The notes under the pieces: model-generated
What the model was told of the DNA's origin: nothing
What the model saw: only the letters and a program-made list of their open reading frames with translations
The model's database searches: none
Shown: positions 492 to 14,244 of the stretch, piece after piece
Layout: the number at the start of each line of letters is the position of its first letter
Numbering within the stretch: the stretch's first letter is position 1
Position numbers and translations under genes: made by a program
Origin: a virus
Taxonomy: Duplodnaviria; Heunggongvirae; Uroviricota; Caudoviricetes
Direction: 5' to 3' (one strand)
Virus record (IMG/VR): IMGVR_UViG_2859777919_000005
Length of the DNA: 14,244 nucleotides

Positions 492-534
492 TGAGGTGTA
501 CTGGCAATAGCGGACACTACCATTTGTTCTTTTT

Positions 535-1353
535 TTAAGCAGCCATCTGATGATATTTTTCCCTGAAGGCTGCCGGGGAGATATTCCCCAGACGAGAGTG
601 ACGACGCTGACGATTGTAGAAAATCTCAATGTATTCCCGTATTACTGAGATGGCTTCATCCCGGTTATTAAAACGATAGTGGCTCAGGCTCTCATTTTTC
701 AGCGTTCCCCAGAAGCTTTCCATCGGAGCGTTGTCGTAACAGTTACCTTTACGCGACATTGATGTTTTCAGACCAGACTGCTCCTGTATGACCCGGTAAT
801 CGTATGCGCAGTACTGTGAACCTCGATCAGAGTGGTGGATTAGCCCGGCAGGTGGGCGCTGGCTCCTGAGCGCCATAAACAGGGCTTTACCTGTCAGCTC
901 TTTTGTCATGCGCTCTCCCATGGCGTAGCCGACAATTTCGCACGTATAAACATCTTTGATGCCAGCGAGGTACAACCATCCCTCCTGTGTGGCAACATAC
1001 GTCAGGTCCGCCACCCAGACCTGATTTGGTGCTGTAGGAGCGAACGTCTGGTTCAGCAGATTTGGCGCAACTGGCAGATTGTGGTTCGAGTTCGTAGTCG
1101 CTCTGAACTTGCGTTTCTGCTTACAGCGTAGCCTTAGCTCCTTACGAAGACGTGCCAGTCGGTCACGACCAACGATGATGCCATTCTCTGCCAGCTCCGT
1201 CTGGAGCCGCCGGGTTCCATATGTTTCGCGAGTGCGGATATGTGCCACCTTAATCTCCAGTTTTAGCCGCTCATCACTTTGTTTTCTGTCTGAGGGTTCA
1301 TGCTGTACCCAGTTGTAATAACCGCTCCTGGATACACCAAATACCTGACACAT
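535..1353 (-). CDS. IS600 OrfB (272 aa; DDE integrase-like catalytic domain)
   Basis: ORF with its own ATG; its frame stays open upstream through the A7 run, consistent with OrfAB fusion by -1 frameshifting (established for the IS3 family). This is the only IS600 copy in the window in which that fused frame is unbroken. Confidence 0.8.
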   Translation of the reverse strand: MCQVFGVSRSGYYNWVQHEPSDRKQSDERLKLEIKVAHIRTRETYGTRRLQTELAENGIIVGRDRLARLRKELRLRCKQKRKFRATTNSNHNLPVAPNLLNQTFAPTAPNQVWVADLTYVATQEGWLYLAGIKDVYTCEIVGYAMGERMTKELTGKALFMALRSQRPPAGLIHHSDRGSQYCAYDYRVIQEQSGLKTSMSRKGNCYDNAPMESFWGTLKNESLSHYRFNNRDEAISVIREYIEIFYNRQRRHSRLGNISPAAFREKYHQMAA

Positions 1354-1388
1354 CGCTTCAATGGGAAATTGTTGTCGCCATTGTTCGA

Positions 1389-1691
1389 TTAACGCGTATT
1401 TTTCAGCGACTCCTGTGCAAAATACGCTGTTGCTTTTTTTAATATATCTCGCTCAAGGCGAGCTTCATTTAACGCCTTACGCAGTTGCAGAATTTCAGAT
1501 TCCAGTTCAGCCACCGTGCGGGAACCAGGAGTACCGAGCCCTTTTCTGGCGGCGGTAACCCATTGTCCTAAAGTGCCTTCAGGAAGAGATAATCGGGAAG
1601 CGCCTTCACTGATCGAAAGTTGATTTTCAGGAACCGTTCTGACAGCTTCGGCTTTGAACTCTTTAGAGTAACGTTGGGTTTTTCTGCTCAT
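1389..1691 (-). CDS. IS600 OrfA (100 aa; HTH DNA-binding part of the OrfAB transposase)
   Basis: ORF MSRKTQRYSKEFKAEAVRTV... with the same protein repeated in the other three IS600 copies. An A7 run (complement of 1434-1440) near its 3' end is a candidate -1 programmed frameshift site, and the orfB frame is open across it. Confidence 0.8.
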   Translation of the reverse strand: MSRKTQRYSKEFKAEAVRTVPENQLSISEGASRLSLPEGTLGQWVTAARKGLGTPGSRTVAELESEILQLRKALNEARLERDILKKATAYFAQESLKNTR

Positions 1692-1884
1692 TATTAGCTC
1701 CTTCTGATGCCATTCTATTTCAGGAAGGAGTGTCCGTTAAACTCAGGCTACCTCACTATGCAGCGCGTGCTGGCGTTTTATCAGGGGAAATTTCAGGAGG
1801 CGGTACTGTGAGTAAAATTAGCTATCAGGCTTCAATTACCGCTGGTATTCGCATCAAAGGAGAGGAGCATGGAAATAAAACCAG

Positions 1885-4343: not shown

Positions 4344-4708
4344 TGATTAATCGAACCAAACTGGAGCACATTCTCGAATATGCCAGGCAGCAGAAATGTA
4401 TTGGGCAACTTTGTAAAATTCCACCAGGAGATATGGTTGAAATCGTGGAAATGGCCATGCGTAAGGCTGGCAACTCTCCGGTAGCTCCGGCTGGCTGGAT
4501 AAGCTGTAGTGATGCAGTTCCTGCTGAATATTGCGATGTGATTCTTCTCGATGATCTCGGGAATGTATTCCCCGGTTCCTGGGATAAGGTTTTTTGCCCC
4601 ACTCGTGGCGGGAATAAGATGGCTTTTGTGGACAAAGACGGCGTTGAAGTAGAGAGCTCAACTCACTGGATGCCGCTACCGGAACCACCGCAGGAGGTGA
4701 ATCAATGA
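4343..4708 (+). CDS. DUF551-family prophage protein (121 aa)
   Basis: Start overlaps the upstream stop (TAATG), with SD AAGGGAGA. The C-terminal ...THWMPLPEPPQE matches the W-x-PLP-x-PP tail I recall for DUF551 proteins of enterobacterial prophages. Confidence 0.7.
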   Translation: MINRTKLEHILEYARQQKCIGQLCKIPPGDMVEIVEMAMRKAGNSPVAPAGWISCSDAVPAEYCDVILLDDLGNVFPGSWDKVFCPTRGGNKMAFVDKDGVEVESSTHWMPLPEPPQEVNQ

Positions 4709-4788
4709 CCTGGCCTGAGGCATTCACCACGGTAGGAATTGCGATGGCGGTGGCGCTGGTGGTGTATTCGATTTGCCGTTGGGGTTAA
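4705..4788 (+). CDS. 27-aa hydrophobic peptide (MTWPEAFTTVGIAMAVALVVYSICRWG), hypothetical
   Basis: Strong SD AGGAGGTGA 7 nt upstream; ATG overlaps the DUF551 stop (ATGA); a single predicted transmembrane helix; followed directly by an intrinsic terminator. Below the ORF-track length cutoff. Confidence 0.5.
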   Translation: MTWPEAFTTVGIAMAVALVVYSICRWG

Positions 4789-4798
4789 CAAACAAAAA

Positions 4799-4824
4799 CC
4801 CCGGATTGATGGTCCGGGGTTTTT
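4799..4824 (+). terminator. Rho-independent terminator ending the plus-strand operon
   Basis: CCCCGGA (4799-4805) / TCCGGGG (4813-4819) perfect 7-bp GC stem with a 7-nt loop, followed by TTTTT; preceded by an A run, so it could act in both directions. Confidence 0.75.
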
Positions 4825-5162
4825 GAAGGAAACAAAACAGAAACAGCAATTGCCGTTACCTGTTGTTACCATGGCAAGTAAACGTATCTCAGGCGAGCGC
4901 ATTGCGCCGTTCTGACGCAGATAAACTAGCCTGGATAGATGGTGCTGGCAATAAAAAATAGCGTTTTCTTATCGGTGTCGGTAAGATTGCTGCGGGTGCT
5001 TGAGGCTGTCTGCCTCGGGTATGTCACTGTAAGGCAGACAGAGAAAAGCCCCAGTTAACATTACGCGTCCTGCAAGACGCTTAACATTAATCTGAGGCCC
5101 AATCTATGTCTCACAAATGTAGGTTAGCCTCTTACGTGCCGAAAGGCAAGGAGAAGCAGGCT

Positions 5163-5318
5163 ATGAAGCAGCAAAAGGCGATGTTAATCGCCCTGATCGT
5201 CATCTGTTTAACCGTCATTGTGACGGCACTGGTAACGAGGAAAGACCTCTGCGAGGTACGAATCCGAATCGGCCAGACGGAGGTCGCTGTTTTCGTAGAC
5301 TACGAATCTAGAGAGTAA
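5163..5318 (+). CDS. hok: Hok/Gef-family type I toxin (51 aa)
   Basis: MKQQKAMLIALIVICLTVIVTALVTRKDLCEVRIRIGQTEVAVFVDYESRE has an N-terminal transmembrane helix and the conserved TRKDLCEV...GQTEVAVF core. It is closest to HokD/RelF and HokC/Gef as I remember them. The ORF-track extension to 5106 is in frame but probably not the start; SD AAGGAGAAG precedes the ATG at 5163. Confidence 0.85.
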   Translation: MKQQKAMLIALIVICLTVIVTALVTRKDLCEVRIRIGQTEVAVFVDYESRE

Positions 5319-5380
5319 GAGTGACCAGGCGGGAGAGTAATCTCCCGCCACCTTTGATGTGTCAGGCATCCTCAACGCAC

Positions 5381-5410
5381 CCGCACTTAACCCGTTTCGG
5401 CGGTTTTTTT
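5381..5410 (+). terminator. Probable 3' end/terminator of the hok mRNA (abutted by IS1)
   Basis: GC-rich segment CCGCACTTAACCCGTTTCGGCGG followed by T7 at 5404-5410. The stem is imperfect. Preceded by a perfect 9-bp hairpin GGCGGGAGA-GTAA-TCTCCCGCC (5328-5349) right after the hok stop. Confidence 0.4.
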
Positions 5411-5425
5411 GGTAATGACTCCAAC

Positions 5426-5928
5426 TTATTGATAGTGTTTTATGTTCAGATAATGCCCGATGACTTTGTCATGCAGCTCCACCGATTTTGAGAACGACAG
5501 CGACTTCCGTCCCAGCCGTGCCAGGTGCTGCCTCAGATTCAGGTTATGCCGCTCAATTCGCTGCGTATATCGCTTGCTGATTACGTGCAGCTTTCCCTTC
5601 AGGCGGGATTCATACAGCGGCCAGCCATCCGTCATCCATATCACCACGTCAAAGGGTGACAGCAGGCTCATAAGACGCCCCAGCGTCGCCATAGTGCGTT
5701 CACCGAATACGTGCGCAACAACCGTCTTCCGGAGACTGTCATACGCGTAAAACAGCCAGCGCTGGCGCGATTTAGCCCGACATAGCCCCACTGTTCGTCC
5801 ATTTCCGCGCAGACGATGACGTCACTGCCCGGCTGTATGCGCGAGGTTACCGACTGCGGCCTGAGTTTTTTAAGTGACGTAAAATCGTGTTGAGGCCAAC
5901 GCCCATAATGCGTGCAGTTGCCCGGCAT
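5426..5928 (-). pseudogene. insB: IS1 insB, frameshifted (copy 2)
   Basis: The InsB reading frame is split into two overlapping ORFs (5426-5791 and 5668-5928) by the 1-bp deletion. Confidence 0.8.
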
Positions 5929-6122
5929 CCAACGCCATTCATGGCCATATCAATGATTTTCTGGTGCGTACCGGGTTGGGAAGCGGTGTAAGTGAACTGC
6001 AGTTGCCATGTTTTACGGCAGTGAGAGCAGAGATAGCGCTGATGTCCGGCAGTGCTTTTGCCGTTACGCACCACCCCGTCAGTAGCTGAACAGGAGGGAC
6101 AGCTGATAGAAACAGAAGCCAC
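5847..6122 (-). CDS. insA: IS1 InsA (91 aa), copy 2
   Basis: Identical protein to copy 1 insA. Confidence 0.85.
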
Positions 6123-6283
6123 TGGAGCACCTCAAAAACACGATCATACACTAAATCAGTAAGTTGGCAGCATCACCTTTTGTCTCTATGTTGATATAAC
6201 CGTTTGTACTTATAAACCTTGAGGTAGCCTGAGTTTAACGGACACTCCTTCCTGAAATAGAATGGCATCAGAAGGAGCTAATA

Positions 6284-6586
6284 ATGAGCAGAAAAACCCA
6301 ACGTTACTCTAAAGAGTTCAAAGCCGAAGCTGTCAGAACGGTTCTTGAAAATCAACTTTCGATCAGTGAAGGCGCTTCCCGATTATCTCTTCCTGAAGGC
6401 ACTTTAGGACAATGGGTTACCGCCGCCAGAAAAGGGCTCGGTACTCCTGGTTCCCGCACGGTGGCTGAACTGGAATCTGAAATTCTGCAACTGCGTAAGG
6501 CGTTAAATGAAGCTCGCCTTGAGCGAGATATATTAAAAAAAGCAACAGCGTATTTTGCACAGGAGTCGCTGAAAAATACGCGTTAA
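6284..6586 (+). CDS. IS600 OrfA (100 aa), copy 2
   Basis: Full-length OrfA; differs from copy 1 at one residue (L versus P in RTVLENQ). Confidence 0.75.
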   Translation: MSRKTQRYSKEFKAEAVRTVLENQLSISEGASRLSLPEGTLGQWVTAARKGLGTPGSRTVAELESEILQLRKALNEARLERDILKKATAYFAQESLKNTR

Positions 6587-6623
6587 TCGAACAATGGCGA
6601 CAACAATTTCCCATTGAAGCGAT

Positions 6624-7438
6624 GTGTCAGGTATTTGGTGTATCCAGGGCGGTTATTACAACTGGGTACAGCATGAACCCTCAGACAGAAAACAAAGTGA
6701 TGAGCGGCTAAAACTGGAGATTAAGGTGGCACATATCCGCACTCGCGAAACATATGGAACCCGGCGGCTCCAGACGGAGCTGGCAGAGAATGGCATCATC
6801 GTTGGTCGTGACCGACTGGCACGTCTTCGTAAGGAGCTAAGGCTACGCTGTAAGCAGAAACGCAAGTTCAGAGCGACTACGAACTCGAACCACAATCTGC
6901 CAGTTGCGCCAAATCTGCTGAACCAGACGTTCGCTCCTACAGCACCAAATCAGGTCTGGGTGGCGGACCTGACGTATGTTGCCACACAGGAGGGATGGTT
7001 GTACCTCGCTGGCATCAAAGATGTTTATACGTGCGAAATTGTCGGCTACGCCATGGAGAGCGCATGACAAAAGAGCTGACAGGTAAAGCCCTGTTTATGG
7101 CGCTCAGGAGCCAGCGCCCACCTGCCGGGCTAATCCACCACTCTGATCGAGGTTCACAGTACTGCGCATACGATTACCGGGTCATACAGGAGCAGTCTGG
7201 TCTGAAAACATCAATGTCGCGTAAAGGTAACTGTTACGACAACGCTCCGATGGAAAGCTTCTGGGGAACGCTGAAAAATGAGAGCCTGAGCCACTATCGT
7301 TTTAATAACCGGGATGAAGCCATCTCAGTAATACGGGAATACATTGAGATTTTCTACAATCGTCAGCGTCGTCACTCTCGTCTGGGGAATATCTCCCCGG
7401 CAGCCTTCAGGGAAAAATATCATCAGATGGCTGCTTAA
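6624..7438 (+). pseudogene. IS600 orfB, frameshifted (copy 2)
   Basis: OrfB sequence is split across two overlapping ORFs (6624-7067 and 6995-7438). Confidence 0.8.
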
Positions 7439-7531
7439 AAAAAGAACAAATGGTAGTGTCCGCTATTGCCAGTACACCTCACACTCTATCCAACAAACCA
7501 CCCACAGTTAATCGGAATAAAAGCAGAGTGC

Positions 7532-7604
7532 TTATGAATGATCGCACGCCCGAAGGTTAGTATTTCTGCACAGCAATTTTGCAAAAAAAGGCGATCATTC
7601 ATAA
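7532..7604. repeat. Perfect 14-bp inverted repeat (TTATGAATGATCGC / GCGATCATTCATAA) with 45-bp spacer
   Basis: Read directly: arms at 7532-7545 and 7591-7604. The spacer contains the palindrome TTTTGCAAAA. Lies on the 3' side of the tRNA array. Confidence 0.6.
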
Positions 7605-7611
7605 CTTAAAC

Positions 7612-7657
7612 GTCTTTCAGTCACTCCGGGATTTCCCATCATCGCAGACTGAAAGAC
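7612..7657. repeat. Perfect 11-bp inverted repeat (GTCTTTCAGTC / GACTGAAAGAC) with 24-bp spacer
   Basis: Read directly: arms at 7612-7622 and 7647-7657, 6 nt beyond the 3' end of tRNA-Gly on the transcribed (minus) strand. Could form a processing or termination hairpin. Confidence 0.6.
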
Positions 7658-7663
7658 TCTGAC

Positions 7664-7738
<75 letters not shown>

Positions 7739-7741
7739 ATA

Positions 7742-7817
<76 letters not shown>

Positions 7818-7819
7818 GC

Positions 7820-7896
7820 TGGCCCACCACCGAGGACTCGAACCTCGCACCGTCAACTTAGAAGGTTGATGCTCTATCCGGATGAGCTAGTGGTGG
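7820..7896 (-). tRNA. tRNA-Arg (anticodon UCU), argN-like
   Basis: Reverse complement CCACCACTAGCTCATCCGGATAGAGCATCAACCTTCTAAGTTGACGGTGCGAGGTTCGAGTCCTCGGTGGTGGGCCA; acceptor CCACCAC/GTGGTGG, anticodon stem TCAAC/GTTGA, loop CTTCTAA, T stem CGAGG/CCTCG, encoded CCA. The unusual C1:G72 start makes the exact 5' boundary less certain. Confidence 0.8.
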
Positions 7897-7897
7897 T

Positions 7898-7974
7898 TGG
7901 TGGCCCTTGCTGGACTTGAACCAGCGACCTGGCGATTATGAGTCGCTCGCTCTGACCAACTGAGCTAAAGGGCC
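7898..7974 (-). tRNA. tRNA with CAU anticodon, ileX/ileZ-like (Ile2, lysidine-dependent) or Met
   Basis: Reverse complement GGCCCTTTAGCTCAGTTGGTCAGAGCGAGCGACTCATAATCGCCAGGTCGCTGGTTCAAGTCCAGCAAGGGCCACCA; anticodon loop CTCATAA. Overall close to E. coli ileX as I recall it, hence probably an AUA-reading tRNA-Ile2. Confidence 0.8.
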
Positions 7975-8062
7975 GGAGGCAGAATAATAACCATATGTCA
8001 TCACATCTGCAAACTCATCTGACCACCAGCACGTTTAACGTCCTGTGCCGTTTTTCAGGTAT

Positions 8063-8084
8063 AAAAAAACCCGCATAAAGCGGG
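8063..8084 (-). terminator. Rho-independent terminator downstream of the Q-like gene (tR'-like)
   Basis: On the minus strand: GC hairpin GCGGG-TTTAT-CCCGC (plus coordinates 8070-8084) followed by U7 (complement of A7 at 8063-8069). It lies about 80 nt downstream of the Q-like stop and about 90 nt upstream of the tRNA array, the position of tR' in lambdoid late operons. Confidence 0.7.
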
Positions 8085-8163
8085 CTCTTTCAAATGTCCA
8101 TGTCTGCTATTCGCCTCGCGGTACAGCTTTGCGAAGCGTACAAGAATTGAAGCAGTTTTTACG

Positions 8164-8718
8164 TCAAAAAGCAATAACTTTTTTCTCTATACCAAAAGCC
8201 ATAACCATTGGTTTGTACAAAATAAATTCTGCCACCTTTAGCCAATGCTCAATGCGTCTTTCACAGGTTCTTAAACTCCATTTCGGGTGTGCATCATTCA
8301 GCAGTTCAGCCATTTTGCGTTTGGTCATCCCCCGCCCCTCATACCGTTGCCGAAGGACGCTAATCAATCCTGGATGCTCTGCCAGCACCTCACTTATGAC
8401 CCGATCAATACATAACGCCTCTGCATCAGTACAATGCGCCAGCCAGCTCTTTTGCTTACCGTTAATCATATCCCGCAAAAAAGCCTCAAGTTCAGACTTG
8501 TTCAGACCTGCTTTTTTCATCCTCCGGAGCGCCTCGTTAATTGCCGTTTTTGTCAGCTTTTTAGAGGTCAACATCAGGTTAAACATATTCCCCGTCTTAC
8601 CGCCACCAATATACGACCAGCGCCCCCACATACGTAGTTTTCCCTGAATCCAGACACTTTCCAGCGTGGTGAGACGAAGGTGTTCTCCGCTTTTTCCTGT
8701 ATTCGTTGGGTAAATCAT
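8164..8718 (-). CDS. Probable late-gene antiterminator Q (184 aa)
   Basis: Start chosen at ATG 8716-8718 (SD AAGGAGGG 8 nt upstream; ATGA overlap with the upstream gene's stop) rather than the longer ORF-track start. Assignment rests mainly on position: last gene of a nin-like block, followed by an intrinsic terminator and phage tRNAs. No catalytic motif recognised; the family is not verified. Confidence 0.55.
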   Translation of the reverse strand: MIYPTNTGKSGEHLRLTTLESVWIQGKLRMWGRWSYIGGGKTGNMFNLMLTSKKLTKTAINEALRRMKKAGLNKSELEAFLRDMINGKQKSWLAHCTDAEALCIDRVISEVLAEHPGLISVLRQRYEGRGMTKRKMAELLNDAHPKWSLRTCERRIEHWLKVAEFILYKPMVMAFGIEKKVIAF

Positions 8719-9005
8719 AAATATCCCTCCTTTCTCCAGATTTCTTGTGTGCGAAAAACACCTTCTGCATGCATCAGGCGTAATTCTTCTTTGGTGTAAT
8801 CGCTGGTTTTTACCCGCCCGTCGATTAAATCGTGGCACGAGCTACAGGCAATCGCTGCCTGCATATCGTGTGGCTTTATCGCTGTTCCGCACGTTCCCGC
8901 CAGTCGGTAATGCGCCAGCACAGACGTTTCCGGATCGTGATTGCAGTAGCCAGGAATTCTGACGGTGCACATCTGCCCCCGCGCCGCTTTACGTAAATCC
9001 ACCAT
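8715..9005 (-). CDS. DUF1364 (YbcO-like) nin-region protein (96 aa)
   Basis: MVDLRKAARGQMCTVRIPGYCNHDPETSVLAHYRLAGTCGTAIKPHDMQAAIACSSCHDLIDGR... with the Cys/His pattern I recall for YbcO of the DLP12 nin region. Start overlaps the upstream stop (TAATG). Confidence 0.7.
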   Translation of the reverse strand: MVDLRKAARGQMCTVRIPGYCNHDPETSVLAHYRLAGTCGTAIKPHDMQAAIACSSCHDLIDGRVKTSDYTKEELRLMHAEGVFRTQEIWRKEGYL

Positions 9006-9604
9006 TACGCAAACTCCAGCAGCTGCGCGGCCACATTTTCGACTTGTTCCGGAGAGGAAAATTTACGGAACAGAATCCAGTTCCACAGCACATTCAGAAC
9101 AGATTTATAAACCTGCTGAAACTCGGTTTCGTCCATATTCGCAAAAGCGATGGATTTTGCCCGACGCCCGCGGCTACCGTCCGGATAAAAATGTTCGGTG
9201 TAAAATCCAGCCTGAATGGTTACCCACTCGCGAAAAGCCTCAAACGACTTTAGCAATGCCGTATCCCGGGTTCTGCGTGTCGCAACTGTATTCAGATATT
9301 GCTCTGCGGCTTCGCTCAGAGCTGGCGTATGTTCCCGACCTACTGATTCGCACAGGTAATCAACGAAACCAGACAGCAGTTCTCGTTCGCGAGGCGTGAT
9401 CGCCCCACCGACCGGAGTCCAGTAATCGAATCCCAGTTGCAGGAGTTTGAAAAAACGCTTGTGGAATGCGTAGTTACGCACACGCTTAAAGTCTGCGTGT
9501 ATCCACTCACCTGTTTTGATTTGATGCAGAAAATCGCAACTCTCCGGCGTCGCCGGGAGAAGTAATCCGGAAGAGGTTTGTTTGATCAGTTGTATATGCG
9601 CCAT
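9005..9604 (-). CDS. Nin-region protein, possibly DUF1367 family (199 aa)
   Basis: ORF MAHIQLIKQTSSGLLLPATPESCDFLHQIKTGEWIHADFKRVRNYAFHKRFF... with SD GGAGAA upstream; translationally coupled to the DUF1364 gene. Family assignment from memory only. Confidence 0.45.
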   Translation of the reverse strand: MAHIQLIKQTSSGLLLPATPESCDFLHQIKTGEWIHADFKRVRNYAFHKRFFKLLQLGFDYWTPVGGAITPRERELLSGFVDYLCESVGREHTPALSEAAEQYLNTVATRRTRDTALLKSFEAFREWVTIQAGFYTEHFYPDGSRGRRAKSIAFANMDETEFQQVYKSVLNVLWNWILFRKFSSPEQVENVAAQLLEFA

Positions 9605-9675
9605 CGTAGTTCTCCGCTGGCGCAGTAGAATGGGTGTTCAGCCCGTTATGTAGTATACCAGAATTAATGCCAATA

Positions 9676-9893
9676 CTAACAGGATGCTCTGACTCGCAAT
9701 TCATCCAGCAGTTTATCATTTCCCATAATGTCACTTACCCTCATCGGTAAAAAAATTGCCTTTCGACCATTACGATACATCATTGATTTTTTGGTTTCAG
9801 GGAAGTAATCCATTTCGACTATAACTGACAGGTCATCACGACGTATGACTGCGTATTTACTACTAAATAGTTTCTTTATTTTTTCCACGATGC
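9676..9893 (-). pseudogene. C-terminal 72 codons of an AT-rich gene truncated by IS600 copy 3
   Basis: Minus-strand frame runs from the IS600 junction (9893) to a TAG at 9678-9676: ...SIVEKIKKLFSSKYAVIRRDDLSVIVEMDYFPETKKSMMYRNGRKAIFLPMRVSDIMGNDKLLDELRVRASC. Lies just upstream of the nin genes. No family recognised. Confidence 0.4.
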
Positions 9894-10786: not shown

Positions 10787-11066
10787 TTAACGCGTATTTT
10801 TCAGCGACTCCTGTGCAAAATACGCTGTTGCTTTTTTTAATATATCTCGCTCAAGGCGAGCTTCATTTAACGCCTTACGCAGTTGCAGAATTTCAGATTC
10901 CAGTTCAGCCACCGTGCGGGAACCAGGAGTACCGAGCCCTTTTCTGGCGGCGGTAACCCATTGTCCTAAAGTGCCTTCAGGAAGAGATAATCGGGAAGCG
11001 CCTTCACTGATCGAAAGTTGATTTTCAAGAACCGTTCTGACAGCTTCAGCTTTGAACTCTTTAGAG
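10787..11066 (-). pseudogene. IS600 orfA, 5'-truncated (copy 3)
   Basis: OrfA residues from SKEFKAEAV onward are present; the first 8 codons and the left inverted repeat are missing. Confidence 0.8.
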
Positions 11067-11739
11067 GTATCGATACCGGCTGACCACACAGCGCTTCGGG
11101 AACGCTGTAACGATTACCACCAACCTCGATATAGCTGTCCCAGGACACATGGCGGATATCGAAGTAACTGGTATCGAAGTCTGTATCCGGTAACGGCTGC
11201 AGATGTTCCTGCTCCAGCGCGAAGCGCTGTTCCGGCGTTTCTTTGAACTGGCGAAGCTCCCGTTTGTCAGCCACATCGGCTATCCATTGCTCCAGTTGTT
11301 GATTGACATGAGTGAAGCTGTCGAACCTGCGGTACCGGACGAAGAAGTTCTCCTTGAGGTATTTCACCATCCGCTCAACCTTACCTTTTGTTCTGGCCCT
11401 GCGTGGACGGCATGCCCGTGGCAGGAAGTTATAGTGGTCAGCCAGCAACAGGAATCCGGAGTTGAACACGACTTTCCCGTTGTTATTCTTCAGCACCGCA
11501 GCCTTCTGGTTATCAACCAGCACCGTTTTCACACAATCACCGAAGTAGCGGAAGGCGCGAACCAGTGATTCGTAGGTATGCTCAGCATCCTGTTTTGGTG
11601 CGGCGAAGACATGGAAGCTGCGGGAGAACCCCAGCGTATTAACCGCAAAGTTAACTTTGCACCGTTGCCCGGCAACCTCCACCTCAACTTCGCCCCAGTC
11701 ATGCTGGAGCTGGTATCCAGGCTGAGTTTCGAAGCGAAC
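11067..11739 (-). pseudogene. IS21-family transposase istA, internal fragment
   Basis: Minus-strand frame encodes ...FHVFAAPKQDAEHTYESLVRAFRYFGDCVKTVLVDNQKAAVLKNNNGKVVFNSGFLLLADHYNFLPRACRPRRARTKGKVERMVKYLKENFF..., which I recognise as the catalytic region of IstA-type transposases. Cut at both ends by IS600 copies; no start codon and no inverted repeats of its own. Confidence 0.65.
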
Positions 11740-12957: not shown

Positions 12958-13000
12958 AAAAAGAACAAATGGTAGTGTCCGCTATTGCCAGTACACCTCA

Positions 13001-14244
13001 GCCGTCTGGCGATACCCGGCGCATTCGGCTTTGGGTGTGCTTTTCTGCCTGAAGATGTTATCCGTTTTGACACTAAGAGTGATTTCCTGGCCTGGGTAAG
13101 GAATGCGCTGCCAGGTGAATATTCCGTTGCTGGCCCCTACGACATCATCATACCCGACACACGGTTTGAAGGGGTGCTCAGCATCCGGTGGACTGATGCA
13201 CGCCCTGAGACAACAGAACCGAGGTACAGAGCCAAATCCCTTACTTTTTACGGCATTAACGGCCCCATTTATCACACCCGCTACTGCTACTGGCCCATAT
13301 CCAGACTGACTGGCTGGGTGAAAATAAATATAACCACAGAAGATATTATTTACAGAATCGTGGCGAGCTCTGTCTGCAACAGATGGGGAGACCCTGACAT
13401 TGGCGGGCTGATTATTGCTGCGTACCAGGGAGAAGCTGACGGTGATAAAGTCATCAGACTTGTCAGGGGGCAGTCATACAGAGGCTCACGACTGGGACCG
13501 GTGGGGATTTCAGTGCCCAGTACTCCCACCGGAACGTATATAGCATCCCCACAATTTTCATTACGGGATGTTCAGAGCATTCATTACCGGGGTCATATAG
13601 CGCCCTGTCCGGGGTGCCGGATGCTCATGTCTCTGGCGCAATGCCCGGGCTTTTTATTCGCACATCGTGAGGAATGCACCGTGGAAATTAAAAAAATCAT
13701 TAATCCCCGTTATACCGAAAGTGGCGCAGTAGACTGTGACGTTTTTTTTGACGACAGGGACCAGGCAGTCCCCTACACAGCCACCGCTGATGATGTCGCA
13801 CCGACGGGTCAGCGAATCTGGCAGGAACTGCAAAGTGGCAAATGGGGTGAGATAGCCCCATTCACTGTGACACCAGAAATGCTGGAAGCGGCCAGAGAGG
13901 CCAGACGTCAGGGAATTGAAGCATGGCGCACAGAACAGGAGGCGAAGCCGTTCACGTTTGAATGGAACGGTCGTATCTGGAATGCTGGCCCCAACTCACT
14001 GGGCCGCCTTTATCCGGTGGTAATGGCTGCGAAATCCGACATTGTACGGGACGTGATGACGTGGGGTGATGCCGATAATCAGCAGGTGAAACAGTCGATG
14101 CCGGAACTGGAAGAACTGGCGGCAGCAATGGCTCAGGCACAGGTTGAGCGCAATGACGAGATTTATCGCCGTCAGCGGGAGCTGAAGGAAGAGCTGAATA
14201 GTCTGAAGGATTTGAATTCGGTTAGGAATTTTATCGTGGAATAA
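13001..14244 (+). pseudogene. C-terminal 414 codons of an unidentified protein, N-terminally truncated by IS600 copy 4
   Basis: Long open frame from the IS600 junction to TAA at 14242-14244. The N-terminal part is Cys/Gly-rich and looks beta-rich (...YDIIIPDTRFEGVLSIRWTDARPETTEPRYRAKSLTFYGINGPIYHTRYCYWPISRLTGWVKINITTEDIIYRIV...); the last 60 aa are a charged, coiled-coil-like tail (...MPELEELAAAMAQAQVERNDEIYRRQRELKEELNSLKDL...). No family recognised; a phage tail-fibre distal domain is one guess. Confidence 0.6.

What the first reader, a model, noticed from the sequence alone, without database searches (positions are those of the whole stretch)
4830..5410. Hok/Gef-family type I toxin locus with the structured leader and 3' hairpins expected of a hok/sok module
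The 51-aa ORF is an unmistakable Hok-family membrane toxin. Upstream there is a long untranslated leader containing a perfect 9-bp inverted repeat (TGTCTGCCT...AGGCAGACA, about 5008-5039) and an in-frame upstream extension from 5106 that may be Mok-like. Downstream there is a perfect 9-bp GNRA-looped hairpin (5328-5349) and a T7 tract. In hok/sok systems a short antisense Sok RNA is encoded opposite the leader, and 5'/3' mRNA pairing (tac/fbi) controls translation (established knowledge). IS1 copy 2 abuts the T tract at 5411, so the 3' control element may be intact or clipped. Whether this copy is functional or one of the decayed chromosomal hok loci is open.
Basis: partly seen in the sequence, partly recalled or inferred. 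Interest (0 to 1): 0.45.

Follow-up and report, generated by a model that had tools for sequence, protein, structure and literature searches.

The report
Prophage hok/sok toxin-antitoxin locus, IS1-flanked
This is an ordinary, apparently complete copy of the well-known hok/sok (hokW/sokW-type) RNA-controlled toxin-antitoxin module. It sits in an insertion-sequence-riddled prophage remnant of Shigella sonnei, and an IS1 element stops one base short of the end of its transcript.

Summary
A 51-aa Hok/Gef toxin ORF lies at 5163-5318 (Pfam 6.7e-22). An in-frame 70-aa mok-type ORF starts at 5106. The 5' inverted repeat, the 3' GNRA hairpin and the T7 tract are all present, and IS1 starts at 5411.

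The conserved module is 4986-5410, not 4830-5410. Its closest characterised relative is hokW-sokW of Stx2 prophage Sp5. The antisense Sok gene maps to 5114->5044 (minus strand), and its -35/-10 region is identical to the experimentally tested sokW promoter. Folding reproduces the classic switch: tac (4994-5005) pairs with fbi (5370-5382) in the full-length RNA, and tac pairs with ucb, and the mok SD with dcb, after 3' trimming. Fifteen base pairs covary across 53 relatives.

IS1 removed one T of the terminator tract and 135 bp of downstream spacer, but none of the transcript. This contrasts with K-12 hokC, where IS186 lies 19 nt after the stop codon.

Three points count against full function. 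The Thr36Ile change is fixed in the S. sonnei copies sampled, at a position that varies across the family. The terminator hairpin is weak, and that weakness is older than the IS1 insertion. Activity is untested.

The exact protein occurs in S. sonnei Ss046, with the same hok-IS1 junction. This is already known biology and of low interest.

The parts
4982..4987 (+). Putative hok promoter -10 hexamer TAAGAT, 6 nt upstream of the inferred +1 at 4994. The -35 is weak or unclear.
   Evidence: It fits the TANNNT rule cited for the hok promoter (PMC9841398). Most relatives have TAGAAT at the same place. The consensus scan found no strong promoter. The position is inferred by homology only.
4994..5005 (+). 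tac, the translational activator element: 5' end of hok mRNA, GGGUGCUUGAGG
   Evidence: It pairs with 5370-5382 in the full-length MFE fold and with 5046-5052 in 3'-trimmed folds. It is near-invariant in 53 relatives, including the R1-type and K-12 hokC loci. The Rfam sok model starts here.
5006..5041 (+).
   Evidence: 10-bp stem in the fold. One pair shows an A-U to G-C compensatory change in 18 of 53 sequences, and 97.2% of cells are paired.
5046..5054 (+). ucb, the upstream complementary box (AAGCCCCAG). It sequesters the mok Shine-Dalgarno in the full-length RNA and pairs with tac after 3' trimming.
   Evidence: Folds. The tac/ucb helix is 99.5% paired across 53 sequences.
5044..5114 (-). 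Sok-type antisense antitoxin RNA, about 71 nt. The 5' end lies opposite mok codons 1-3. A long terminator hairpin is followed by GGGGCUUUUC.
   Evidence: Coordinates transferred from the annotated sokW of VT2-Sakai (L011 1559-1629) and SokC of K-12. The slightly longer stretch 5114->5036 folds at -37.5 kcal/mol, z=-7.04.
5121..5149 (-). Sok promoter: -35 TTGCCT (5149-5144), 17-nt spacer, -10 TAACCT (5126-5121). The start site lies 7 nt downstream at 5114.
   Evidence: The stretch is identical to the hokW-sokW probe YO-597. The -10 is the element mutated in the 'pro-less' construct that abolished antitoxin activity (PMC8621323). It is near-invariant in relatives. It falls below the threshold of the generic promoter scan.
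5106..5318 (+). mok-type leader ORF, 70 aa, in frame with hok and ending at the same stop. Its SD is GAGG at 5094-5097.
   Evidence: It has the same 213-nt in-frame layout as the annotated mokW and mokC.
5108..5113 (+). dcb, the downstream complementary box (GUCUCA). It pairs with the mok SD region 5093-5098 in the trimmed RNA to form the Sok-target hairpin.
   Evidence: Folds of 4994-5365 and 4994-5360. 79.8% of cells are paired in relatives, in a hypervariable stretch.
5163..5318 (+). hok toxin gene, 51 aa: MKQQKAMLIALIVICLTVIVTALVTRKDLCEVRIRIGQTEVAVFVDYESRE. SD is AAGGAG at 5148-5153. Ile36 codon is at 5268-5270.
   Evidence: Pfam HOK_GEF 6.7e-22. The exact protein is found in Shigella sonnei genomes, including Ss046. 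It differs by one residue (Thr36Ile) from the IS1-free E. coli allele.
5296..5310 (+). Small hairpin UAGA-CUACGAA-UCUA that presents the Tyr47 codon UAC (5301-5303) in a tRNA-Arg-like loop. It is a candidate TadA A-to-I editing site (Tyr to Cys).
   Evidence: Present in the full-length fold. Two of its four pairs show compensatory changes (helix 5). Editing at the homologous position of hokC/D/E is reported in PMC12214031. On its own the hairpin is weak, at -0.2 kcal/mol.
5328..5349 (+). Stable 3' UTR hairpin, 9 bp with a GUAA loop. It is the probable stop point for 3' exonucleolytic trimming.
   Evidence: -19.7 kcal/mol, z=-6.45. Five of nine pairs have compensatory changes (helix 6). The role as a trimming stop is inferred from the R1 model.
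5370..5382 (+). fbi, the fold-back inhibitory element CCUCAA-C-GCACCC. It is complementary to tac, with one bulged C.
   Evidence: MFE fold. 99.4% of cells are paired in relatives. Three relatives change the bulged C (to U or A), as expected for an unpaired base.
5392..5410 (+). Terminator: weak 4-bp hairpin CCGU-UUCG-GCGG followed by T7
   Evidence: -3.8 kcal/mol against -11.8 for the family consensus. The two weakening substitutions are also present in the IS1-free allele L001. The tract is T7 here and T8 in L001.
5411..6177 (-). IS1 copy 2. It abuts the T tract, and its transposase genes read toward hok.
   Evidence: Its ends were identified. It is identical to copy 1 over the 300-nt stretches compared. 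It has no target duplication, and 135 bp present in L001 are missing, which indicates an adjacent deletion. The same junction occurs in all six S. sonnei contigs examined.

Best explanation
The locus is a hok/sok-family type I toxin-antitoxin module of the hokW/sokW (hokC/hokD-like) subgroup. It is carried in the early-gene (nin-like) region of a degraded lambdoid prophage of Shigella sonnei.

Likely mechanism:
1. A weak promoter (-10 at 4982-4987) makes an mRNA of about 415 nt, from 4994 to about 5410.
2. The 5' end (tac) pairs with the 3' fbi element, and ucb covers the mok Shine-Dalgarno. The full-length RNA is therefore stable and can neither be translated nor bound by Sok.
3. Slow 3' trimming back towards the 5328-5349 hairpin removes fbi. 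tac then switches to ucb, and the mok SD pairs with dcb to form the Sok-target hairpin.
4. While the short-lived Sok RNA (5114->5044, from its own promoter at 5149-5121) is being made, it pairs across the mok start and the duplex is destroyed.
5. If Sok falls, mok is translated, and hok translation is coupled to it. The 51-aa Hok then inserts into the inner membrane and kills the cell.

IS1 landed at the terminator T tract and deleted the spacer beyond it, leaving the whole transcription unit in place.

Shown here: the presence, position, conservation and predicted pairing of every element.

Taken from the literature on R1 hok/sok and Sp5 hokW-sokW: the processing, RNase III decay, translational coupling and killing steps.

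Not shown: expression or toxicity of this particular copy.
For: - Toxin: Pfam HOK_GEF 6.7e-22.
- Leader: the Rfam sok model matches 4994-5168 at 118 bits.
- tac-fbi pairing of 12 bp in the MFE fold, z=-5.87.
- Switch to tac-ucb and SD-dcb pairing when the RNA is cut back to 5365 or less. This matches the published R1 model (PMC9841398).
- Conservation: across 53 relatives 96.5% of structure cells are paired. 15 pairs show double changes, against 5.7 +/- 1.3 in shuffles and 4-6 in slid controls.
- Sok: the position comes from the annotated sokW and SokC. Its -35/-10 stretch is identical to the sokW region whose -10 mutation abolished antitoxin activity. The Sok region folds with z=-7.
- mok has the same in-frame layout as mokW and mokC.
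- Context: prophage genes DUF4014, HNH, DUF551, then hok, then DUF1367/YbcO/DUF1133. The same order is seen in E. coli prophages.
- Only three point differences separate this copy from an IS1-free allele over 621 nt.
- Position 36 varies across the family: T, S, D, Y, N, L, H, R, V and others.
Against: - No expression or toxicity data exist for this copy.
- Ile36 replaces a Thr that is near-invariant within the close subgroup. Its effect is unknown.
- The terminator hairpin is reduced to 4 bp, at -3.8 kcal/mol, no better than shuffled sequence. 3'-end formation may therefore be inefficient, with transcripts running into IS1.
- The generic sigma-70 scan found no promoter for either strand. Both promoters rest on homology.
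- Chromosomal hok loci tested earlier (hokA, hokB, hokC) did not mediate post-segregational killing (bioRxiv 10.1101/2025.08.07.668861).
- The tac-fbi helix is almost invariant among relatives, so it is supported by conservation and energy, not by covariation.
Confidence: 0.93

Rival explanations
1. The locus is a decayed, non-functional hok relic, either attenuated by Thr36Ile or mis-expressed. It has the family's architecture but no longer kills, like the K-12 chromosomal hok loci, and persists only because it is neutral in a dead prophage.
For: - Thr36 is near-invariant in close relatives, and Ile36 is present in every S. sonnei copy sampled.
- The terminator hairpin is degenerate.
- The surrounding prophage is broken by two IS1 and four IS600-like copies and an inversion.
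- Most K-12 chromosomal hok loci are regarded as inactivated (PMC12214031), and the chromosomal loci tested did not mediate post-segregational killing (bioRxiv).
Against: - The ORF has no stop codon, frameshift or truncation.
- All regulatory elements are intact, and the Sok promoter is identical to a functional one.
- Position 36 accepts L, V and Y in natural Hok representatives.
- The weak terminator is shared with IS1-free E. coli alleles. Functional hokW lacks this terminator altogether.
- IS1 and its 135-bp deletion stop exactly at the transcript's end, whereas in K-12 hokC IS186 removes the 3' UTR.
Confidence: 0.3
2. IS1 changes how the locus is regulated. One route is read-through of hok transcripts into IS1. 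The other is IS1 transposase transcripts running antisense into the hok 3' UTR. Either would alter 3' processing and the timing of activation, or silence hok.
For: - IS1 lies directly after a weak terminator.
- Its insA/insB genes are on the minus strand and converge on hok.
- The junction is the same in all six S. sonnei contigs examined.
Against: - The terminator was already weak before IS1 arrived.
- fbi, the GNRA hairpin and T7 are unchanged.
- There is no evidence for outward transcription from this IS1 end.
- The family tolerates quite different sequence downstream of fbi.
Confidence: 0.08
3. The two directly repeated IS1 copies (1895-2662 and 5411-6177) and the 2.7 kb between them form a Tn9-like composite transposon that carries hok/sok as an addiction cargo.
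For: The two IS1 copies are identical over the stretches compared, lie in the same orientation, and bracket DUF4014-HNH-ORF221-DUF551-hok/sok.
Against: - Copy 1 has its own 10-bp target duplication, AAGATGAGTT, so it is an independent simple insertion.
- Copy 2 has no duplication and has an adjacent deletion.
- The outer flanks of the pair do not match each other.
- The enclosed genes are in their normal prophage order.
Confidence: 0.02

Closest known systems
hokW-sokW (with mokW) of Stx2 prophage Sp5 / VT2-Sakai / 933W, E. coli O157:H7
   Same: - Same lambdoid-prophage setting, downstream of a DUF551 gene.
- Same 51-aa toxin length, and the same 70-codon in-frame mok.
- 92.7% nucleotide identity over window 4986-5392.
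- Identical Sok promoter stretch, and the same tac, ucb and fbi sequences.
- hokW-sokW was shown experimentally to be a type I TA system that depends on RNase III and Hfq and aids phage release after SOS induction (PMC8621323).
   Different: - The toxin C-terminus is ...VDYESRE here against ...VDYESEK, and residue 36 is Ile here against Thr.
- The Sok 5' recognition / mok start stretch differs (ATCTATGTCTCACAAATG against ATCCATGCTGAACACATG), so cross-repression is unlikely.
- Sp5 lacks the CCCG...CGGCGG-T terminator found here.
- The host prophage here is a disrupted remnant, not an inducible phage.
hok/sok (parB) of plasmid R1 and F-type plasmids
   Same: Same gene set (hok, mok, sok) and the same tac/fbi/ucb/dcb logic. 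The 5' end GG(G/C)(U)GCUUGAGGCU and the ucb AGCCCC are conserved. The Sok promoter is at the homologous place.
   Different: - Per PMC8621323, HokW is 44% identical to R1 Hok.
- In the R1-type locus mok is out of frame with hok: the mok and hok start codons are 58 nt apart, against 57 nt here (read).
- It is plasmid-borne with a post-segregational killing role.
- The Sok hairpin is shorter.
hokC (gef)/mokC/sokC of E. coli K-12
   Same: Close toxin sequence, an in-frame mokC, an annotated SokC at the homologous position, and the same tac and 5' hairpin.
   Different: - In K-12, IS186 lies 19 nt after the hokC stop and removes the GNRA hairpin, fbi and terminator. Here IS1 lies 92 nt after the stop and removes none of them.
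- hokC lacks the 18-nt extension of the Sok hairpin.
hokD (relF) of the K-12 Qin prophage
   Same: Toxin of the same subgroup. NCBI's pipeline names many alleles of this locus 'HokD'.
   Different: K-12 hokD is reported to lack the canonical toxin-antitoxin components after a genomic rearrangement (PMC12214031). The window copy has all of them. This contrast was not re-examined at the sequence level here.

Membership tests
Hok/Gef toxin family (Pfam PF01848) | Small (about 50 aa) protein that matches the HOK_GEF profile above the curated cut-off | tested here: met
   77.3 bits against a cut-off of 22, E=6.7e-22, covering residues 6-47.
Hok/Gef toxin family (Pfam PF01848) | N-terminal hydrophobic helix followed by the conserved periplasmic motif (R-K-x-L-C-E ... 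G ... E-V-A ... Y/C-E) | tested here: met
   Read directly from the sequence and from the alignment with 84 family representatives. Cys15, Arg26-Lys27, Cys30-Glu31, Gly37, Glu40 and Tyr47-Glu48 are all present. Only position 36 is unusual.
Hok/Gef toxin family (Pfam PF01848) | The peptide is toxic and damages the membrane when expressed | not testable with these tools
   Shown for HokW (PMC8621323) and for diverse Hok representatives (bioRxiv abstract). Not shown for this Ile36 variant.
[quoted passage not shown] | Overlapping mok leader ORF upstream of hok, with its own Shine-Dalgarno | tested here: met
   ORF 5106-5318 with GAGG at 5094-5097. Same layout as the annotated mokW and mokC.
[quoted passage not shown] | Cis-encoded antisense Sok RNA opposite the mok translation start, with its own promoter and terminator | tested here: met
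   Homologous to the annotated sokW and SokC at 5114->5044. -35 TTGCCT, 17-nt spacer, -10 TAACCT, identical to the sokW region tested by mutation. A hairpin plus U-tract follows, and the region folds with z=-7. Transcription itself was not observed.
[quoted passage not shown] | 5' tac / 3' fbi long-range pairing that closes the full-length mRNA | tested here: met
   12 bp, 4994-5005 with 5370-5382, in the MFE fold. 99.4% paired in 53 relatives, but nearly invariant, so there is no covariation test.
[quoted passage not shown] | Alternative tac/ucb and mok-SD/dcb pairings in the 3'-processed mRNA | tested here: met
   Both appear when the RNA is truncated to 5365 or 5360. tac/ucb is 99.5% paired and SD/dcb 79.8% paired in relatives. 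The real processing site is unknown. Truncation at 5370-5375 instead gives an alternative 5'-3' pairing.
[quoted passage not shown] | Sok neutralises Hok, and loss of Sok activates killing | not testable with these tools
   Demonstrated for hokW-sokW. Needs experiment here.
IS-inactivated chromosomal hok locus (K-12 hokA/C/E type) | The insertion sequence removes or separates the 3' UTR control elements (fbi, terminator) from hok | tested here: not met
   IS1 starts after the seventh T of the terminator tract. Everything up to 5410 aligns with IS1-free alleles. By contrast IS186 lies 19 nt from the hokC stop.

The most novel reading that the evidence does not exclude
The IS1 insertion, and the adjacent 135-bp deletion that ends exactly at the transcript's last T, may not be a neutral near-miss. 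Two mechanisms are possible:
- Events that cut into fbi or the terminator were lethal, so the boundary marks a selective limit.
- IS1 now modulates hok 3'-end formation or supplies a second antisense transcript.

Together with the lineage-fixed Thr36Ile, this would make the S. sonnei copy a re-tuned variant of hokW-sokW, not a plain copy.
Probability: 0.07. Interest if true: 0.35.

Novelty: already known. Interest (0 to 1): 0.1.

Why it matters
[quoted passage not shown] They occur in most E. coli genomes: 4720 of 5426 complete genomes match this query, with a median of two places each. They are known to be enriched in prophages. The three Hok genes of S. sonnei Ss046 were catalogued in 2010 (PMC2887945).

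The useful outcome is a precise map of every regulatory element in this copy. The adjacent IS1 spared the transcript, unlike the IS-disrupted K-12 loci. If anyone studies type I TA activity in S. sonnei, this copy is a reasonable candidate for an intact locus. It carries one natural substitution (Thr36Ile) that is worth testing.

Tried and rejected
1. Generic sigma-70 and terminator scan of 4700-5500. It found no promoter on either strand and missed the hok terminator, whose stem is under 5 bp. Promoter calls therefore rest on homology.
2. Permissive Rfam search of 4600-5500. It gave only sub-threshold hits driven by the 4793-4825 terminator hairpin.
3. Supplementary tables of the FASTBAC-Seq paper, to see whether the R1 residue equivalent to position 36 tolerates substitution. 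They are not held. I used family-wide residue counts instead.
4. Composite-transposon idea for the two IS1 copies. It was rejected on the flank analysis.
5. Covariation test of tac-fbi. It is uninformative because both sides are almost invariant.
6. The strand of the Rfam 'sok' hit. The model matches the hok-sense leader (plus strand), so it cannot be used to orient the Sok gene. I oriented Sok with the annotated sokW and SokC instead.
7. Exact ancestry of the IS600 junctions at 6219/6220 and 9893/9894. Four bases (GGAG) of the Ss046 sequence are unaccounted for. I did not pursue this.

Full report
**Observation**

- The toxin ORF runs from ATG 5163 to the stop at 5316-5318 (51 aa). It matches Pfam HOK_GEF at 77 bits against a cut-off of 22, E=6.7e-22.
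- An in-frame ATG at 5106 gives a 70-aa ORF.
- The 3' hairpin GGCGGGAGA-GUAA-UCUCCCGCC lies at 5328-5349. It is very stable: -19.7 kcal/mol, z=-6.45.
- T7 occupies 5404-5410, and IS1 begins at 5411 with its GGTAATGACTCC end.
- The transcript 4994-5410 folds far better than shuffled sequence (z=-5.87).
- The Rfam sok model matches 4994-5168 at 118 bits. That match is on the hok-sense strand, and the model ends at the hok AUG. It therefore describes the hok leader and does not orient the antisense gene.

**Boundaries and origin**

The exact 51-aa protein is encoded in Shigella sonnei genomes, including Ss046 (CP000038). The hok-IS1 junction is the same in all six contigs examined.

In E. coli, 4720 of 5426 complete genomes hold a related sequence, but only 26 records cover 80% or more of 4790-5420. 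Phage records match only from window 4986 to between 5392 and 5411.

The flanking genes place the locus in the early region of a lambdoid prophage. Upstream are DUF4014, HNH, a 221-aa ORF and DUF551. Downstream in intact relatives are DUF1367, YbcO, a DUF1133/Q-like gene, tRNAs and lysis genes.

**Closest characterised relative**

The best-studied homologue is hokW-sokW (with mokW) of Stx2 prophage Sp5/VT2-Sakai/933W, at 92.7% identity over 4986-5392. In the VT2-Sakai record, mokW is a 213-nt ORF that ends at the hokW stop, and sokW is annotated antisense across the mokW start.

- Transferring those coordinates gives mok 5106-5318 and Sok 5114->5044. The SokC annotation of K-12 gives the same 5' end when mapped through an alignment.
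- The published primers and probes for hokW-sokW (PMC8621323) show that the stretch CCTTGCCTTTCGGCACGTAAGAGGCTAACC is identical in the window. It holds the Sok -35 TTGCCT, a 17-nt spacer and the -10 TAACCT.
- The 'pro-less' construct that lost antitoxin activity changed exactly this -10.
- The Sok region folds as a long hairpin followed by GGGGCUUUUC (-37.5 kcal/mol, z=-7.04).

**RNA switch**

In the full-length fold, GGGUGC/UUGAGG (4994-5005) pairs with CCUCAA-C-GCACCC (5370-5382). At the same time GCC.CAG (5048-5054) covers CUG.GGC (5092-5098), which contains the mok Shine-Dalgarno.

When the 3' end is cut back to 5365 or 5360, the 5' end instead pairs with AAGC/CCC (5046-5052). UGAGGC (5093-5098) then pairs with GUCUCA (5108-5113), forming a hairpin around the mok start. 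This is the tac/fbi to tac/ucb plus SD/dcb rearrangement described for R1 hok (PMC9841398). Truncation at 5370-5375 gives a different 5'-3' pairing, so the result depends on the real processing site, which is unknown.

Across 53 distinct relatives (51 phage, prophage and E. coli copies plus an R1-type plasmid locus and K-12 hokC):

- The full-length structure is 96.5% paired.
- It has 15 pairs with compensatory changes, against 5.7 +/- 1.3 in shuffles and 4-6 in slid controls.
- The covariation lies in the 5' hairpin, the Sok hairpin, the small hairpin around Tyr47, the GNRA hairpin and the terminator.
- tac, ucb and fbi are almost invariant, which is compatible with the model but does not test it.

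**Effect of IS1**

E. coli FDAARGOS_944 carries an IS1-free allele that is 99.5% identical. Over 621 nt the window differs at three positions:
- 5020, in a hairpin loop.
- 5269, ACC to ATC, which gives Thr36Ile.
- 5291, a synonymous change.

In the IS1-free allele the terminator tract is T8, followed by 135 bp of spacer and then TTTTGTCTCTATG. In the window IS1 sits between the seventh T and that TTTTGTCTC, with no target duplication. IS1 therefore inserted at or near the T tract and deleted the adjacent spacer, and no part of the transcript was lost.

K-12 hokC is the contrast. There IS186 ends 19 nt after the stop codon, and the homology stops inside the GNRA hairpin. The K-12 hokA, hokC and hokE loci are reported as inactivated by insertion elements (PMC12214031).

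**Points against full function**

1. Thr36 is near-invariant among the 77 close copies sampled; Ile36 appears only in the S. sonnei-type allele and once elsewhere. In 84 family representatives clustered at 50% identity, the position is variable: T 30, S 8, D 6, Y 3, N 2, L 2, H 2, R 2 and others. The change is therefore not at a fixed site, and its effect is unknown.
2. The terminator stem is reduced to 4 bp (-3.8 kcal/mol), against -11.8 for the family consensus AACCCGC-UUCG-GCGGGUU. Both weakening substitutions are already in the IS1-free allele. Functional hokW lacks this terminator altogether.
3. Neither promoter reaches the threshold of a generic scan.
4. Chromosomal hok loci tested in earlier work did not give post-segregational killing.

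**Additional features**

- The Tyr47 codon UAC (5301-5303) lies in a CUACGAA loop closed by UAGA/UCUA, and the stem covaries. By my own knowledge that loop sequence matches the anticodon loop of tRNA-Arg(ACG), the natural TadA substrate. A-to-I editing that recodes this position to Cys is reported for hokC, hokD and hokE (PMC12214031). Editing here is an inference.
- The stretch opposite the Sok 5' end (5099-5120) is the most variable part of the module among relatives, while the Sok promoter and hairpin barely change. This would be expected if co-resident copies avoid cross-repression. That is my inference, not a tested claim.

**Verdict**

This is a member of a very well-known family. Its exact toxin sequence and hok-IS1 junction are already present in public S. 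sonnei genomes, and the Hok genes of Ss046 were counted in a 2010 survey (PMC2887945). The open question about the 3' element is answered: it is intact. What remains open is experimental activity. Novelty: already known. Interest: low.

Noticed in passing
window 4705-4788 (+), with hairpin 4793-4825: A 27-aa hydrophobic ORF (MTWPEAFTTVGIAMAVALVVYSICRWG) starts in an ATGA overlap with the DUF551 gene stop. A bidirectional terminator-like hairpin follows it. The same peptide occurs in at least 28 of the fetched loci, and the Sp5 copy reads differently after residue 7 (38 aa), apparently frameshifted. It has no Pfam hit and may be an unannotated small membrane protein.
   Followed up: partly
window 5296-5310 (+): The hok Tyr47 codon UAC sits in a 7-nt CUACGAA loop on a 4-bp stem. 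By my own knowledge this resembles the tRNA-Arg(ACG) anticodon arm that TadA edits. Editing to Cys at this position is published for hokC/D/E, and the stem covaries among relatives.
   Followed up: partly
window 5392-5410 (+): The hok terminator hairpin of this allele is only 4 bp (-3.8 kcal/mol), against 7 bp (-11.8 kcal/mol) in the family consensus. The two responsible substitutions are also in the IS1-free E. coli allele, so the weakening predates IS1.
   Followed up: yes
window 5411-6177 and 6178-6219; L001 6622-6756: IS1 copy 2 has no target-site duplication. 135 bp of spacer present in E. coli FDAARGOS_944 is missing next to it, which points to an IS1-associated adjacent deletion. IS1 copy 1 (1895-2662) is a simple insertion with the 10-bp duplication AAGATGAGTT.
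   Followed up: yes
window 492-1755, 6220-7483, 9894-~11157, 11740-~13002: There are four copies of an IS3-family element about 1264 bp long, which I take to be IS600-like. It encodes a 100-aa HTH_Tnp_1 ORF and a roughly 270-aa rve ORF. Together with the two IS1 copies, insertion sequences make up about 46% of the window.
   Followed up: partly
window 7484-9893: This segment carries four tRNA genes (7667-7974, minus strand), a DUF1133/Q-like gene, YbcO, DUF1367 and the 70-aa ORF. It is inverted relative to S. sonnei Ss046 and to the E. coli prophages, and is bounded by oppositely oriented IS600-like copies. This is consistent with an IS-mediated inversion. Four bases (GGAG) at the junctions are unaccounted for.
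   Followed up: partly
window 5099-5120 and the homologous stretch of L011-L092: The mok start / Sok 5' recognition stretch falls into many distinct sequence classes among otherwise near-identical modules. The adjacent Sok promoter and terminator hairpin are almost invariant. This suggests diversification of Sok specificity between co-resident copies.
   Followed up: no
window 4994-5168 (+): Rfam RF01794 is named 'sok antitoxin', yet it matches the hok-sense strand and ends at the hok AUG. A hit to it marks the hok leader, not the orientation of the Sok gene.
   Followed up: yes
window 10966-11682 (-) and 12985-14244 (+): A truncated rve / Mu-transposase-C-like ORF lies between two IS600-like copies. 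A DUF4376-containing ORF (419 aa or more) runs off the right end of the window. Neither was examined further.
   Followed up: no
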